DNA of 19,882 nt from a virus. This document shows, piece after piece, positions 483 to 4,973 of the stretch. Position 1 is the stretch's first letter. Every line of letters starts with the position of its first letter. Below the pieces are notes generated by a model, which saw only the letters and a list, made by a program, of their open reading frames with translations, searched no databases and was not told the origin of the DNA. The translations under genes were made by a program, and so were the position numbers. The stretch lies in UHGV virus genome UHGV-0342044. One strand, 5' to 3'.

Positions 483-499
483 TTTTGTGGAGAAAGTTG

Positions 500-865
500 A
501 TGCGTGATATTCAAATGGTTCTTGAACGTTGGGGGGCATGGGTGGCAAATAATCACGAGGATGTCACCTGGTCGTCTATTGCTGCAGGATTTAAAGGACT
601 AATCCCTTCAAAAGTAAAATCCCGCCCGCAATGTTGTGACGATGACGCGATGATCATTTGTGGGTGCATGGCTCGCCTGAAAAAGAACAACAGCGATTTG
701 CACGATTTATTAGTGGATTATTATGTAGGTGGTATGACGTTTATGGCGCTTGCCCGTAAACATGGGCGTTCTGATTGCTGGGTTGGGCGTTTATTGCAAA
801 AGGCTGAAGGTGTAGTTGATGGCATGTTAATGATGTTAGAAATTGAGCTAGAGATGGATCGTTAG
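500..865 (+). CDS. late-gene antitermination protein Q (short QuuD / phage-82-like type)
   Basis: ATG at 500 preceded by GGAG at 489-492; the ORF track begins at a TTG at 485. Protein [14 protein letters not shown]...[18 protein letters not shown] matches from memory the short Q antiterminators of E. coli cryptic prophages. Position just before the lysis region fits. Confidence 0.75.
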
Positions 866-906: not shown

Positions 907-938
907 TGGGGAGTCGATTTATTCTCCCCATTTTATTT
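907..938 (+). terminator. putative rho-independent terminator downstream of Q (tR'-like)
   Basis: Inverted repeat TGGGGAG (907-913) / CTCCCCA (924-930) with a 10-nt loop, followed by TTTTATTT (931-938) on the + strand. Confidence 0.45.
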
Positions 939-949
939 AATTAATTTAC

Positions 950-1396
950 TTAAGGTTTTAATTCATCAAGACGTTGTTGGATAGTGTTTTTGCTTGCGTT
1001 GTCTGTTATAGCCATTTGTTGTACTTGCCCCATTGCCATTTGAGTTTCCATCCACATATCGGCCCACACTTTTGTATCGTTATTAACTTGAGCGATAGTA
1101 AATCTGACTTTTGATACCGGGGTTGTTGAATAGGCATTGCCGATTAACATTTGTCCAAAAACAGCAGAGCCGCCTTCCAGTTCTTTACCACATATAACAC
1201 TGCTGTTATCCGCGTTGTAAATTATCAACCCTCTACTATTGCAGTAATTCACAAGGGCATCTTTGACTTTATCTTTTGTCATATTTTGATAAACCCCCTC
1301 AGGTTTTCCTGATTGAGTTTTCTTTATCAATGGTACGGAAGAAGTACAACCTGAAATGATAGTTGCGCTAAGTAATAGTACAGTCATTTTATTCAT
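950..1396 (-). CDS. putative lipoprotein (accessory moron, unknown function)
   Basis: 148-aa ORF on the minus strand with an N-terminal signal peptide and lipobox (MNKMTVLLLSATIISGC). Strongly AT-rich relative to the flanking phage genes. It is the only convincing minus-strand gene in the window. Confidence 0.7.
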   Translation of the reverse strand: MNKMTVLLLSATIISGCTSSVPLIKKTQSGKPEGVYQNMTKDKVKDALVNYCNSRGLIIYNADNSSVICGKELEGGSAVFGQMLIGNAYSTTPVSKVRFTIAQVNNDTKVWADMWMETQMAMGQVQQMAITDNASKNTIQQRLDELKP

Positions 1397-1526
1397 GTTT
1401 CTTATCCATTGTTAAGGGCATACCCACACAATTATTTTTATTGGAGATGAATAATCAACCGTTTACAATCGTAAAAAATCAAATATGCTGTTAAGAGTGG
1501 TTACTTCGCCACACAACTTAAACCCG

Positions 1527-1544
1527 CCGCTGAGCGGTTTTTTT
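1527..1544 (+). terminator. putative rho-independent terminator
   Basis: Short GC stem CCGC (1527-1530) / GCGG (1534-1537) with loop TGA, followed by a run of seven T (1538-1544) on the + strand. Confidence 0.4.
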
Positions 1545-1666
1545 GTACCTGTAAACTTGGTGCAGTACAGTAAACACGCTGGTGGTCGTGAATACTGACT
1601 TTTTATCTTGCTGGCTTTTTAGACAAGAGTTATTGGTATGTCATGTTAACCAGAAGGGGAAAAGAC

Positions 1667-1870
1667 ATGCTAAAACAGCAAGATATGACAGAAACCGCCG
1701 CCGCAGTCCTTCATTTCTTACCTGCTGACAAGTGGGTAACGCCACGCATGATGACGAGAACTGCCGGAGTAAGCGAAGCCCGGTGCCAGTTAATACTGAC
1801 CCAGTTAGTTCTGGCGGGTCTGGCGAAGGATAACGGCGGGTACGGGAATAAATTCAGACGCTGCCAGTAA
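1667..1870 (+). CDS. small hypothetical protein, possible winged-helix DNA-binding protein
   Basis: ATG at 1667 preceded by AAGGGGA (1654-1660). 67-aa product MLKQQDMTETAAAVLHFLPADKWVTPRMMTRTAGVSEARCQLILTQLVLAGLAKDNGGYGNKFRRCQ has a helix-turn-wing-like pattern. The ORF track gives a longer version from 1643. Function is inferred only. Confidence 0.5.
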   Translation: MLKQQDMTETAAAVLHFLPADKWVTPRMMTRTAGVSEARCQLILTQLVLAGLAKDNGGYGNKFRRCQ

Positions 1871-2020: not shown

Positions 2021-3073
2021 ATGAAAAATACTGTAAAAATAAACAGTGTTGATTTAATCAACGCTGATTGCCTGCATTTTATTCAGTCCCTGCCTGATGA
2101 TTCCATTGACCTGATTGTTACCGATCCGCCGTACTTCAAGGTGAAACCCAACGGCTGGGACAATCAGTGGAAAGGGGACGAAGATTACCTTAAGTGGCTG
2201 GACCACTGTCTGGCCCAGTTCTGGCGGGTGTTAAAACCTGCCGGAAGCCTTTACCTGTTCTGTGGGCATCGCCTGGCATCTGATATTGAGATCATGATGC
2301 GTGAACGTTTCAACGTGCTTAACCATATCATCTGGGCGAAGCCGTCCGGACGTTGGAATGGGTGTAATAAAGAAAGTCTGCGCGCATATTTTCCTGCCAC
2401 AGAGCGCGTTCTGTTTGCTGAACATTACCAGGGGCCATATCGTGGCAAAAGTGATGGCTATGCGGCAAAAGAAAGGGAACTCAAACAGCACATAATGGCA
2501 CCGCTGATATCGTATTTCAGGGATGCTCGTGCCGAACTGGGTATAACGGCAAAACAAATTGCCGAAGCCACAGGTAAGAAAAATATGGTTTCCCACTGGT
2601 TTGGTGCCAGTCAGTGGCAGTTGCCGAATGAGGCTGACTATCGGAAGTTACAGGCACTGTTTTCCCGTATAGCGGCAGAGAAGTTTCAGGAACAACAACT
2701 GGAACAACCACACCACCAGCTGGTGGCATCTTATGATTCACTGAATCGCAAATATTCTGAATTGCTGGATGAGTTTAAATCTCTCCGGCGCTATTTCTCC
2801 GTATCAGTCTCCGTGCCTTATACCGATGTCTGGACGCATAAGCCCGTTCAGTTCTACCCGGGTAAACATCCGTGCGAGAAACCGGCGGATATGCTCCGGC
2901 AAATAATCAATGCCAGTAGTCGCCCTGGTGATCTGGTTGCTGATTTCTTTATGGGATCCGGTTCCACAATAAAAGCAGCAATGGCGCTGGGGCGTCGGGC
3001 GTTAGGTGTTGAACTTGAGTCAGAGCGGTTTAATCAGACGGTGAAAGAGGTAAGTGAACTGGTGGGGAAATAA
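2021..3073 (+). CDS. DNA methyltransferase, beta-class (N6-adenine or N4-cytosine)
   Basis: 350-aa ORF with catalytic DPPY motif near the N-terminus (IVTDPPYF) and the AdoMet-binding FxGxG motif near the C-terminus (DFFMGSGST). This circularly permuted order is typical of beta-class amino-methyltransferases. A central insertion carries an HTH-like segment (ITAKQIAEATGKKNMVSHWF). Confidence 0.85.
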   Translation: MKNTVKINSVDLINADCLHFIQSLPDDSIDLIVTDPPYFKVKPNGWDNQWKGDEDYLKWLDHCLAQFWRVLKPAGSLYLFCGHRLASDIEIMMRERFNVLNHIIWAKPSGRWNGCNKESLRAYFPATERVLFAEHYQGPYRGKSDGYAAKERELKQHIMAPLISYFRDARAELGITAKQIAEATGKKNMVSHWFGASQWQLPNEADYRKLQALFSRIAAEKFQEQQLEQPHHQLVASYDSLNRKYSELLDEFKSLRRYFSVSVSVPYTDVWTHKPVQFYPGKHPCEKPADMLRQIINASSRPGDLVADFFMGSGSTIKAAMALGRRALGVELESERFNQTVKEVSELVGK

Positions 3074-3149
3074 TTCTGGTGGCCACGTTGCGTGGCCTTT
3101 TTATTTCCAACACAGCACCCGCAAATATCGCGAGGTGAGAGATGACGAA

Positions 3150-3485
3150 ATGCCTCATAACCCAAATACCTGGCCGGACTGGCTGGAGTTGTTTCAGAGC
3201 TGGTGGCGTGGAGACACGCCGCTGGGTGCAGTGATTATGTCGATCGTTATGGCTGGTTTGCGCATCGCCTATTTTGGCGGTGGTGGTGGCTGGAAGCGAA
3301 AAACGCTCGAGATTTTGCTCTGTGGCGCTCTGACGCTGACCTTTGCATCCGCTCTTGAGTATGTCGGATGGCCTAAATCACTTTCTGTTGCCATTGGTGG
3401 CGGCGTGGGGCTGATCGGTGTCGATGCTATTCGTGGGGCTGCAATGCGAGTAATCGGTAACAAGTTTGGTGGCTCTAAGGAGTAA
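3150..3485 (+). CDS. S: holin, class I (lambda S-like)
   Basis: ATG at 3150 preceded by GAGGTGAG (3132-3139). 111-aa product begins MPHN (lambda S105 begins MPEK) and has three predicted transmembrane segments and a charged C-terminus (IRGAAMRVIGNKFGGSKE). It lies immediately upstream of the endolysin. The ORF track's longer version from 3054 overlaps the methyltransferase and is probably artefactual. Confidence 0.75.
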   Translation: MPHNPNTWPDWLELFQSWWRGDTPLGAVIMSIVMAGLRIAYFGGGGGWKRKTLEILLCGALTLTFASALEYVGWPKSLSVAIGGGVGLIGVDAIRGAAMRVIGNKFGGSKE

Positions 3486-4399: not shown

Positions 4400-4402
4400 C
4401 AG

Positions 4403-4428
4403 AGCCAGCTTAATTGCTGGCTTTTTTG
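4403..4428 (+). terminator. rho-independent terminator after the lysis cassette
   Basis: AGCCAGC (4403-4409) / GCTGGCT (4416-4422) stem with loop TTAATT, followed by TTTTTT (4423-4428), directly after the Rz stop. Confidence 0.6.
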
Positions 4429-4749
4429 TTTCCGGGGCCAATCAATTAAGCACACAGTATCGTGACACAATCATGCGTCGCATCGTCGCCGTATTCCCGT
4501 ATTAACAGAGACCGTAGCCCGACGGGGAACTCCTTCTGCGCGAGTATGCGGGAATAATCAAAAACGATGCACACCGGGTTTTTACCGCGTTTATGGTTCG
4601 CGGGTTTGTCCCTCATGCTCGCCAGTCCTGTGCGGGGGTGGAAGAAACAGGACACTTACACAGATTCTTGTGGGCACGATGCTATGTCTTTCTGGATTAT
4701 CTCGATGCCATTCATGCAAGGCGCTGTATCAGACGTTCGTCAGAGCTGT

Positions 4750-4810
4750 CAGGCTGACGGGTCCTCCCTGTGGGGTGGCCTGCCACGGGGCGGGAGCGTC
4801 GCGGAAAAAG
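4750..4810. other. cos site (cosQ-cosN region), lambda-like
   Basis: The sequence GACGGGTCCT...CCACG-GGGCGGGAGCGT-CGCGG aligns from memory with the lambda right-end / cosN / left-end junction (ACGGGTCCTTTCCGGTGATCCGACAGGTTACG-GGGCGGCGACCT-CGCGGG). It sits about 175 bp upstream of the small terminase gene. Confidence 0.6.
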
Positions 4811-4884
4811 GCTAGTTTTTGCATTTTTATCGGCCACCATCATCTTTGCATCTTATTGATTATTAATGGTTATTTGTTTTTTGT

Positions 4885-4951
4885 ATGTCGAATTGAGTGT
4901 TTTTTGTTCGACATCGAACGCGTTTTCTTAAAGTTGTTCGCACGATGCATG
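4885..4951. repeat. cosB-like region with TCGA-core inverted repeats (candidate small-terminase binding sites)
   Basis: ATGTCGAA (4885-4892) and its reverse complement TTCGACAT (4907-4914); imperfect palindrome GTTCGA-CA-TCGAAC (4906-4919); a related GTTCGCACG at 4936-4944. All lie between the predicted cosN and the small terminase start. Confidence 0.35.
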
Positions 4952-4973
4952 TTTAAAGCTCTCCGGAGGAAAT

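What the first reader, a model, noticed from the sequence alone, without database searches (positions are those of the whole stretch)
950..1396. Reverse-oriented AT-rich lipoprotein moron of unknown function
This is the only credible minus-strand gene in the window. It is clearly AT-rich compared with the flanking phage genes, encodes a lipobox signal peptide (LLLSATIISGC), and is flanked by + strand terminator-like hairpins at 907-938 and 1527-1544. Opposite orientation and foreign composition are hallmarks of a moron expressed from its own promoter in the lysogen. Small phage lipoproteins often act in superinfection exclusion (Cor and Llp types) or serum resistance (Bor type), but I do not recognise this protein as any of those.
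Basis: inference. Interest (0 to 1): 0.6.

Follow-up and report, generated by a model that had tools for sequence, protein, structure and literature searches.

The report
Prophage lipoprotein moron, function unknown
A real, foreign-looking gene for a small outer-membrane-type lipoprotein sits backwards between the late-gene activator Q and the late promoter of an E. coli lambda-like prophage; it belongs to a large unnamed family that keeps landing next to phage tail-tip genes, which makes it a good candidate for a protein that blocks entry of other phages, though this has not been tested.

Summary
ORF 950-1396 (-) encodes a 148-aa protein with a signal peptide, an ISGC lipobox and no Asp at +2. 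Its GC is 38% against 53% for the rest of the window. It is the only minus-strand ORF with homologs.

The two flanking + strand hairpins are real, but they belong to the phage: 908-938 follows Q, and 1526-1544 is tR'. The late promoter pR' lies at 1462-1489. The gene therefore sits in the Q|reverse cargo|pR' slot, which holds a porin gene in phage ev099.

The cassette is present at 98-100% identity, always in this slot, in 185 of 5,426 complete E. coli genomes (UTI89 included), in two isolated phages and in about 50 IMG/VR contigs.

The protein is PHROG 3152 (unknown function). It has no Pfam, NCBIfam or PADLOC match and no mature-domain similarity to Bor or Cor. An exhaustive HMM search finds 853 cluster representatives, nearly all lipoproteins, some fused to PDZ. 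The AF2 model (pLDDT 85) is a small helix-grip/KA1/BamC-like fold, which says nothing about function.

Outside E. coli the gene lies mostly inside tail modules (T|H, H|M, M|L, K|I) in polyphyletic placements, and its own promoter moves with it.

Best guess, at moderate-to-low confidence: a periplasmic block to phage entry. It is an ordinary kind of element but a useful lead.

The parts
485..865 (+). Q-type late antiterminator gene; left border of the cargo slot
   Evidence: phrog_79 'anti-termination protein Q-like', E=1.5e-51. RefSeq annotates it as 'antiterminator Q family protein' in UTI89.
908..938 (+). Intrinsic-terminator-like hairpin with T-rich tail, after Q and 12 nt beyond the lipoprotein stop codon. 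It is oriented for + strand transcripts. On the - strand the hairpin has no U-tract.
   Evidence: stem 908-927, 7 pairs, tail CCATTTTATT. Sequence read.
950..1396 (-). Lipoprotein gene, 148-aa precursor and about 132-aa mature protein; member of PHROG 3152 and of a large unnamed family
   Evidence: AF2 model with pLDDT 85.
1346..1396 (-). Signal peptide and lipobox (residues 1-17, MNKMTVLLLSATIISGC). The +2 residue is Thr, which under the E. coli rule means Lol-dependent sorting to the outer membrane.
   Evidence: Sequence. Cys17 is invariant. The +2 residue is A, T or V in all close homologs. The sorting rule is established knowledge, not tested here.
1431..1458 (-). Candidate sigma-70 promoter of the lipoprotein gene (TTGATT-16-AATAAT), with a predicted start about 28 nt upstream of the ATG
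   Evidence: 9 of 12 matches. This is a consensus match only. The region is AT-rich, with 7 promoter-like sites found against 2.6 expected.
1462..1489 (+). Late promoter pR' of this Q family (TTTACA-16-TATGCT), back-to-back with the lipoprotein promoter candidate
   Evidence: The -35, the spacer motif CGTAAAAAAT and the -10 are conserved in phage ev099, which has the same Q family. Phages with other upstream cargo share sequence only from the -10 onward.
1523..1546 (+). tR'-type terminator of the short late leader transcript; right border of the cargo slot
   Evidence: The same hairpin is annotated 'terminator' in phages Ayreon and SfV. Homology with many lambdoid phages starts here.

Best explanation
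SHOWN. The gene is a horizontally acquired single-gene cassette (a moron) in a lambdoid E. coli prophage. It lies in reverse orientation between the Q gene and the late promoter pR'. It encodes a secreted, lipid-anchored protein of about 14.5 kDa whose signal predicts outer-membrane anchoring facing the periplasm. It belongs to a large, unnamed, strongly conserved lipoprotein family that is carried almost only by temperate phages and other mobile elements.

INFERRED, the mechanism I commit to. The protein is made from its own promoter in the lysogen, where pR and pR' are silent and nothing reads against it. It is exported and lipidated. From the inner face of the outer membrane it interferes with an incoming siphovirus at the envelope-crossing step, that is tail-tip or tape-measure passage through the periplasm and peptidoglycan, rather than by masking one particular surface receptor. 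It would thereby exclude superinfecting phages with lambda-type tail tips. The same activity expressed late, from copies inside tail operons, would also keep progeny from wasting ejections on infected cells or debris.

Confidence that it is a genuine moron-borne lipoprotein is about 0.9. Confidence in the entry-block mechanism is about 0.35-0.4.
For: Gene reality and lipoprotein nature.

Foreign composition: 0.378 against 0.532 GC. Homolog cassettes elsewhere are also 3-16 GC points below their flanks.

Cargo status: Ayreon, cdtI, mEp460_4F5 and ev099 carry different genes at this site, including an OmpD/NmpC-type porin. The cassette is in only 185 of 5,426 E. coli genomes, always in this slot, and 176 copies are at least 99% identical.

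The promoter moves with the gene. The Phytobacter nin-region copy and an after-TMP copy share just 567 bp at 94.5% identity. This runs from 88 nt upstream of the ATG, including TTGCTT/TTACAT-16-TAATAT/TATTAT, to about 20 nt past the stop. A promoter plus terminator, or a terminator alone, flanks the tail-module copies in L005, L010 and L028.

Linkage to the entry apparatus. Of 25 diverged IMG/VR loci, 23 lie inside the tail module, at TMP|M, M|L, K|I or before TMP. The same holds for Salmonella, Citrobacter, Klebsiella, Morganella, Proteus, Photorhabdus and Haemophilus prophages. The slots are polyphyletic on the protein tree, so the cassette has landed there repeatedly. The Klebsiella copy occupies the chaperone|tape-measure slot. 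In HK97 that slot holds gp15, a proven superinfection-exclusion moron that acts on DNA entry (PMC3594210).

No receptor pairing. The J C-terminal domain of PhiR40_1 is unrelated to that of other carriers. This argues for a target other than the J-specific surface receptor.

Family-wide invariant polar loops (T27, S29, G30, G86-N87-x-Y89-S90, M120, G123-Q124, N137) suggest a conserved binding surface.
Against: No experiment of any kind bears on function, and expression in lysogens is not shown.

The family extends to alpha- and beta-proteobacteria. It includes PDZ-, TPR-, SH3- and SHOCT-fused forms, at least one of them in a partly chromosomal neighbourhood. That fits a general envelope-binding module at least as well as a phage-specific blocker.

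Clustering in tail modules could reflect permissive intergenic junctions or co-inheritance rather than function. The number of truly independent insertions is smaller than the number of loci.

The E. coli copy itself is not in the tail module.

Only 2 of 50,697 sequenced phage records carry the gene.
Confidence: 0.4

Rival explanations
1. Lysogenic-conversion envelope factor unrelated to phage. The lipoprotein binds a conserved periplasmic or outer-membrane component and improves host fitness, for example serum or complement resistance as with lambda Bor, or envelope-stress tolerance or colonisation.
For: It has the same gene architecture as lambda bor: a small lipoprotein, reverse-oriented, in the late region. 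It is carried by extra-intestinal pathogenic strains such as UTI89 and NU14, and by APEC isolates. The motifs are conserved family-wide across proteobacterial classes, and fusions to PDZ, TPR and SH3 modules point to a conserved host envelope partner.
Against: There is no mature-domain similarity to Bor. The gene also occurs in commensal, environmental and animal isolates. This reading does not explain the repeated placement inside tail-tip modules.
Confidence: 0.2
2. Lytic-cycle helper rather than a lysogen function. The protein is made late with the tail genes and exported. It protects progeny virions from abortive ejection on infected cells and debris (the second role described for T5 Llp), or it modulates envelope disruption at lysis.
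For: In nearly all non-E. coli loci the gene is co-oriented with, and embedded in, the late tail operon. It would be transcribed late there whatever its own promoter does.
Against: The E. coli copy is reversed and lies upstream of pR', so it is outside the late transcript. The cassette carries its own promoter and is often followed by a terminator inside the operon, which is the moron design for expression from a repressed prophage. The PHROG hits to Rz1-type spanins cover only the signal peptide, at E 0.03-0.04.
Confidence: 0.15
3. Periplasmic inhibitor or immunity protein against an envelope-acting enzyme or toxin. Candidate targets are a muralytic or NlpC/P60-type activity (such as gpK-like tail-tip peptidases), type VI effectors, or colicins and lysozymes.
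For: It is a small periplasmic lipoprotein with invariant polar loops, as in known inhibitor families. The recurrent K|I slot lies directly downstream of the JAB plus NlpC/P60 gene.
Against: There is no sequence or fold match to MliC/PliC, Ivy, PliG or Tai/Tsi-type proteins among the best PDB matches. No toxin gene is adjacent in any locus inspected. This overlaps with the best explanation if the inhibited enzyme belongs to an incoming phage.
Confidence: 0.1
4. Functionless hitch-hiker or decaying ORF
For: No function is known, and the databases annotate it as a hypothetical protein.
Against: 176 of 190 E. coli copies are at least 99% identical and intact. dN is 0.2-0.5 with synonymous sites saturated. 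There are 853 cluster representatives with invariant motifs. The fold prediction is confident.
Confidence: 0.03

Closest known systems
HK97 gp15 moron (superinfection exclusion at DNA entry; Cumby et al. 2012, summarised in PMC3594210)
   Same: Both are single-gene morons of lambdoid siphoviruses encoding a small envelope protein. The Klebsiella homolog occupies exactly the chaperone|tape-measure slot of gp15. Many other homologs abut the tape-measure gene.
   Different: gp15 is a YebO-like inner-membrane protein, not a lipoprotein, and there is no sequence relationship. The E. coli copy studied here is in the Q-pR' slot, not the tail operon. Exclusion is proven for gp15 and only inferred here.
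Cor (HK022, phi80, N15, T1) and Llp (T5): phage lipoproteins that inactivate FhuA
   Same: Both are small phage-encoded outer-membrane lipoproteins genetically linked to the phage's host-recognition genes. They protect the lysogen or infected cell from phages that use the same entry route.
   Different: hhalign to HK022 Cor aligns only the signal peptide, residues 1-32. The mature protein is about twice as long. No PHROG or Pfam hit to these families was found. Carriers do not share a J receptor-binding domain, so a one-receptor masking model is not supported.
Lambda Bor / Iss (serum-resistance lipoprotein)
   Same: Both are reverse-oriented small lipoprotein morons in the late region of a lambdoid prophage.
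   Different: There is no mature-domain similarity and no Pfam Bor match. The slot differs: bor lies after Rz, whereas this gene lies between Q and pR'.
DLP12-type Q | nmpC (porin) | late promoter arrangement
   Same: The cargo slot and reverse orientation are the same. Phage ev099, which has the same Q family and the same pR' sequence, carries an OmpD/NmpC-type porin there.
   Different: The cargo is a lipoprotein rather than a porin.
Helix-grip / KA1 / BamC-domain / DUF3568 (Flpp3) folds
   Different: Identity is 6-14%, Foldseek TM is 0.3-0.45, and there is no sequence-profile match. This is a fold resemblance only, with no functional transfer.

Membership tests
Moron (Juhala/Hendrix definition) | An extra gene absent from the same position in related phages | tested here: met
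   Ayreon/mEp460, cdtI, mEp460_4F5 and ev099 share the flanks but carry other cargo. The cassette is in 185 of 5,426 E. coli genomes.
Moron (Juhala/Hendrix definition) | Nucleotide composition different from neighbouring genes | tested here: met
   GC is 0.378 for the gene against 0.532 for the rest of the window.
Moron (Juhala/Hendrix definition) | Own promoter and terminator | tested here: inconclusive
   In the window there is a promoter-like site at 1458->1431 with 9 of 12 matches. The downstream hairpin at 908-927 has its T-tract on the other strand. In relatives a promoter lies within the 567-bp mobile unit, and strong terminators follow the gene in L005, L010 and L028.
Moron (Juhala/Hendrix definition) | Expression from the repressed prophage | not testable with these tools
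   Needs RNA-seq or 5'RACE on a lysogen.
Bacterial lipoprotein (Lgt/LspA substrate) | Signal peptide ending in the lipobox [LVI][ASTVI][GAS]C | tested here: met
   ISGC at residues 14-17. The Cys is invariant in A1 and A3. At least 114 of 148 distant representatives have a lipobox.
Bacterial lipoprotein (Lgt/LspA substrate) | Actual acylation and membrane localisation | not testable with these tools
   Outer-membrane sorting is inferred from the absence of Asp at +2 and the E. coli sorting rule.
PHROG 3152 | Full-length HMM match | tested here: met
   E=9e-104, residues 1-148 against profile positions 1-148. The category is 'unknown function'.
Cor superinfection-exclusion lipoproteins | Sequence similarity of the mature protein | tested here: not met
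   hhalign of A3 against HK022 Cor aligns only residues 1-32, the signal peptide. No PHROG or Pfam hit.
Bor/Iss lipoproteins | Sequence similarity of the mature protein (Pfam Lambda_Bor) | tested here: not met
   hhalign against lambda Bor aligns only residues 1-36. No Pfam hit at E<=1.
T5 Llp | Sequence or fold similarity | tested here: not met
Known anti-phage defence systems (PADLOC-DB v2) | HMM match to a catalogued defence protein | tested here: not met
   0 families at E<=1.
VirB7 (name carried by a UniRef entry for the Xenorhabdus homolog) | Similarity beyond the lipid-attachment site; type IV secretion context | tested here: not met
   The only match is PF08139 LPAM_1 on residues 1-17 at E=0.22. 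All contexts inspected are phage or mobile elements without T4SS genes.
BamC / KA1 / helix-grip domains | Homology, as opposed to fold resemblance | tested here: inconclusive

The most novel reading that the evidence does not exclude
The protein is the E. coli representative of a previously unrecognised, widespread class of phage-borne periplasmic lipoproteins, with at least 850 clusters at 50% identity. In this reading the class blocks siphovirus genome delivery after adsorption, by engaging the tape-measure or tail-tip complex or the conserved periplasmic route it uses. That would explain why the gene keeps being recruited next to TMP, M, L, K and I genes. The PDZ-, TPR- and SH3-fused relatives would then mark the cellular ancestor, an envelope-binding module.
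Probability: 0.3. Interest if true: 0.65.

Novelty: new member of a known kind. Interest (0 to 1): 0.45.

Why it matters
Moron-encoded envelope proteins are a main way in which prophages change host phage sensitivity and virulence, yet only a handful of them (Cor, Llp, Bor, gp15, SieA) have known activities.

This family is large, has no Pfam family or functional annotation, is easy to test as a single gene, and is present in model uropathogens (UTI89, NU14) and in two cultured ECOR phages. Its repeated recruitment into tail-tip modules gives a concrete hypothesis. If it blocks entry at the periplasmic stage, it would add a new exclusion class. It would also provide a tool to probe how lambda-type tails cross the periplasm, and it could help predict phage-therapy failures in lysogens.

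If it proves to be a virulence or fitness factor instead, it is a new Bor-like lysogenic-conversion gene.

Tried and rejected
- Pfam, NCBIfam and PADLOC scans of the protein gave nothing beyond a marginal lipid-attachment-site hit.
- PDB sequence searches with the single sequence and with a profile gave only chance hits, or PDZ hits caused by the fused relatives.
- Foldseek against PDB and BFVD found no match at E<=1e-3. The afdb50 library was unavailable.
- Spanin idea: rejected. The Rz1-like PHROG hits cover only residues 1-35 at E 0.03-0.04, and the window has its own Rz.
- VirB7 label: rejected as a signal-peptide artefact.
- Receptor-pairing test (Cor/Llp logic): the J C-terminus of PhiR40_1 is unrelated to that of the Salmonella, Jejubacter and Citrobacter-type carriers, so there is no support for a single-receptor model.
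- Alignment of the upstream regions of ten cassettes found no shared promoter, only an RBS-proximal TTAA..GGA pattern.
- The strongest promoter-like match on the - strand (1415->1386, 10 of 12) was rejected, because its -10 lies inside the first codons.
- Literature: no paper mentions WP_001033965. Keyword searches found no study of this protein. PhiR40.1 appears only as a ManYZ-independent panel phage. The source paper for the panel (Brenes & Laub 2025) is not held. DefensePredictor does not mention lipoproteins.
- The search for related loci with the very diverse alignment A2 failed for lack of a conserved stretch.
- Names for ten distant representatives: none exist.

Full report
**1. The observation**

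The minus-strand ORF 950..1396 exists. It starts with ATG and encodes 148 aa. Its N-terminus is MNKMTVLLLSATIISGC, a classical lipoprotein signal with lipobox I-S-G-C. The residue after the Cys is Thr, not Asp, and in close homologs it is A, T or V. By the E. coli sorting rule (established knowledge) this predicts transfer to the outer membrane.

GC is 0.378 for the gene and 0.365 for 866-1525, against 0.532 for the rest of the window.

The five other longest minus-strand ORFs have no PHROG match and lie inside + strand genes that match tail proteins strongly. The lipoprotein gene is therefore the only credible leftward gene.

It is not a chance ORF:
- It matches PHROG 3152 over its full length at E=9e-104.
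- It has homologs at 50-72% identity in Salmonella, Jejubacter, Citrobacter, Xenorhabdus, Morganella, Enterobacter and Phytobacter.
- Pairwise comparisons give dN 0.2-0.5 with synonymous sites saturated.

**2. Local anatomy**

The window is the late region of a lambdoid prophage. In order it contains DUF968/HNH (72-482), Q antiterminator (485-865), the lipoprotein gene, a small ORF (1643-1870), a DNA methyltransferase (2021-3073), holin, lysozyme, Rz, terminase and tail genes.

From about 1521 rightward the sequence is shared with many lambdoid phages, and there the hairpin is annotated as a terminator.

Phage ev099 has a Q gene of the same family, 83% identical in DNA. In ev099 the stretch GTTTACnnnCGTAAAAAATnnnnTATGCTGTTAAGAGTGG is conserved with window 1461-1499. 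Phages cdtI and mEp460_4F5, which carry other upstream cargo, share only the part from the -10 element onward. I therefore read TTTACA (1462-1467)-16-TATGCT (1484-1489) as the late promoter pR' of this Q family. The Q-specific element lies between the hexamers, and 1526-1544 is tR'.

The lipoprotein gene thus sits between Q and pR'. It is not inside the late transcript.

The same Q|reverse cargo|pR' slot holds an OmpD/NmpC-type porin in ev099, and other leftward genes in cdtI and mEp460_4F5. Ayreon carries a different rightward 141-aa gene bracketed by two copies of the tR' hairpin.

A promoter-like site for the lipoprotein gene lies back-to-back with pR': TTGATT-16-AATAAT at 1458->1431. This is a consensus match in AT-rich DNA, not proof of a promoter. 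A higher-scoring match at 1415->1386 was rejected because its -10 lies inside the first codons.

The hairpin at 908-938 is oriented to stop rightward transcripts leaving Q. On the minus strand it lacks a U-tract.

**3. Distribution**

The cassette with both flanks is present at 98-100% identity in the following:
- 185 of 5,426 complete E. coli genomes. That is 190 places, all chromosomal, with 176 at least 99% identical. UTI89 and NU14 are included.
- Two isolated ECOR phages, PhiR40_1 and PhiR55_1, out of 50,697 phage records.
- About 50 IMG/VR contigs.

In E. coli it is always in this one slot, so it represents a single insertion that spread with the Q-late module.

**4. The protein family**

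There is no Pfam, NCBIfam or PADLOC match and no PDB sequence match.

An exhaustive profile search of 1.84 billion cluster representatives gave 853 hits at E<=1e-3 and 412 at E<=1e-10. Nearly all are lipoproteins of about 150 aa with a T-x-S-G-x-P-E motif roughly ten residues after the Cys. Further near-invariant positions are G86, N87, Y89, S90, P93, M120, G123, Q124 and N137.

Some members carry C-terminal additions. PDZ is present in 16 of 54 scanned, a sample I biased toward long proteins. One has TPR/YfiO-like repeats, one has SH3_3 and one has SHOCT.

Every source name is 'hypothetical' or 'lipoprotein', and clusters are small, as expected for an accessory gene. The 'VirB7' name on one UniRef entry rests only on the lipid-attachment profile.

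Profile comparison with lambda Bor and with HK022 Cor aligns only the signal peptide.

**5. Genomic contexts elsewhere: the most informative result**

Outside E. coli the gene is almost always inside a temperate-phage tail module, co-oriented with the tail genes. The slots are:
- Between tail chaperone and tape measure in Klebsiella. This is the very slot of the HK97 gp15 exclusion moron (PMC3594210).
- Directly or closely after the tape-measure gene in Citrobacter-type phages, an Enterobacteriaceae MAG, Photorhabdus and Haemophilus.
- Between K and I in Salmonella, Jejubacter and Morganella.
- After the tape measure plus two tail genes in Proteus.

Among 25 diverged IMG/VR loci, 23 are in the tail module. 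The slots are TMP|M, M|L, K|I, before TMP, or the Proteus-type arrangement.

Other sites are:
- a nin region;
- beside a repressor;
- a P1-like element;
- Mu-like Halomonas prophages;
- other mobile elements;
- one PDZ-fused alphaproteobacterial copy next to hut genes, with a tape-measure gene 3 kb away.

On a neighbour-joining tree of the mature proteins the slots are polyphyletic. An H|M group is sister to a K|I group, and a T|H copy is sister to a K|I copy. A nin copy is nearly identical to an after-TMP copy. The E. coli protein nests among K|I and H|M copies (no bootstrap, so only the close pairs are safe).

The nin and after-TMP pair share exactly 567 bp at 94.5% identity. This runs from 88 nt upstream of the ATG to about 20 nt past the stop, and the upstream part contains a good sigma-70 promoter. 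The mobile unit is therefore promoter plus gene.

Strong terminators follow the gene in three tail-module copies, and a promoter precedes one of them. Cassette GC is 3-16 points below the flanks in most loci. This is textbook moron anatomy.

**6. Mechanism**

Shown: this is an autonomous, mobile, single-gene cassette for a conserved secreted lipoprotein, carried by temperate phages.

Inferred: it is expressed in the lysogen, anchored in the outer membrane facing the periplasm, and acts on phage entry.

The argument for entry blocking is genetic linkage. Exclusion genes that must match an entry apparatus tend to stay next to it, as cor does beside J and the tail fibres, llp beside pb5, and gp15 beside the tape measure. 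This cassette has been recruited repeatedly into every junction of the TMP-M-L-K-I block.

The J receptor-binding domain differs between carriers. The family is also conserved across distant hosts. For both reasons I favour a target common to lambda-type tail tips, or to the periplasmic route they use, over masking of one receptor.

The weaknesses are plain:
- There is no experimental evidence.
- There is no defence-database hit.
- The fold is uninformative.
- The fused and partly chromosomal relatives suggest a general envelope-binding module.
- The tail-module bias could partly reflect permissive junctions and shared ancestry.

I put the entry-block mechanism at about 0.35-0.4. The rivals are a Bor-like fitness factor (0.2), a lytic-cycle helper (0.15), an inhibitor or immunity protein (0.1) and a functionless ORF (0.03).

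**7. Comparison, novelty and verdict**

As an element it is an ordinary moron in a known cargo slot, the DLP12-type Q-nmpC arrangement. As a protein it belongs to no characterised family. Membership of Cor, Bor, Llp, VirB7 and the catalogued defence systems was tested and not met. It is a member of PHROG 3152 (function unknown).

I class it as a new member of a known kind, moron-encoded envelope lipoproteins. It is moderately interesting because the family is large, has no Pfam family or assigned function, shows a striking tail-module association, and can be tested with one plasmid and a phage panel.

Noticed in passing
window 1462-1546: The late promoter pR' and tR' of this Q family lie about 600 bp downstream of the Q gene, separated from it by the reverse cargo. 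The -35, the spacer and the -10 are conserved with phage ev099. Phages with other upstream cargo share sequence only from the -10 onward, which suggests a mosaic junction right at the promoter.
   Followed up: partly
L033 2088-3170 and L036 (phage ev099); L032 (cdtI) 12-1400; L034 (mEp460_4F5) 493-1419: The same Q-to-pR' slot carries other leftward cargo in relatives. In ev099 it is an OmpD/NmpC-type porin. In cdtI it is two hypothetical genes, and in mEp460_4F5 it is a 308-aa hypothetical gene.
   Followed up: partly
L025 (phage Ayreon) 813-856 and 1492-1530: Two copies of the tR'-type hairpin AACCCGCCACTGAGCGGGTTTTTT bracket a different, rightward 141-aa moron. This looks like a terminator duplication made by the insertion.
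   Followed up: no
window 1643-1870 and 2021-3073: A small ORF (phrog_331, unknown function) and a 350-aa DNA methyltransferase are the first genes after tR', ahead of the holin. A methylase is thus placed at the head of the late operon, and the same block is shared by many lambdoid and Stx phages.
   Followed up: no
window 3054-3485: The listed holin ORF starts at a GTG that overlaps the methylase end. It matches the holin PHROG only from residue 32, so the true start is probably further downstream.
   Followed up: no
window 4400-4973: About 570 bp lie between Rz and the small terminase subunit with no convincing gene. UTI89 annotates only a 50-aa ORF there. This may be the cos or packaging region. 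There is no bor-like gene here, unlike in lambda.
   Followed up: no
proteins P0051-P0190 (distant family members); L024 5935-6699: A subset of the family carries a C-terminal PDZ domain, and single cases carry TPR/YfiO-like, SH3_3 or SHOCT. Several PDZ forms have ordinary signal peptides instead of lipoboxes. The Sphingosinicella copy sits beside hut genes.
   Followed up: partly
L035 (PhiR40_1) 222-1212: The isolated phage that carries the cassette also carries a YafO/YafM-annotated toxin-antitoxin pair at its left end and a Lom homolog after J. The prophage therefore holds several accessory genes.
   Followed up: no
L012 2043-5004 (Photorhabdus): The tape-measure gene upstream of the lipoprotein copy is split into two ORFs of 615 and 291 aa. 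The same is seen in L106. These prophages may be decaying.
   Followed up: no
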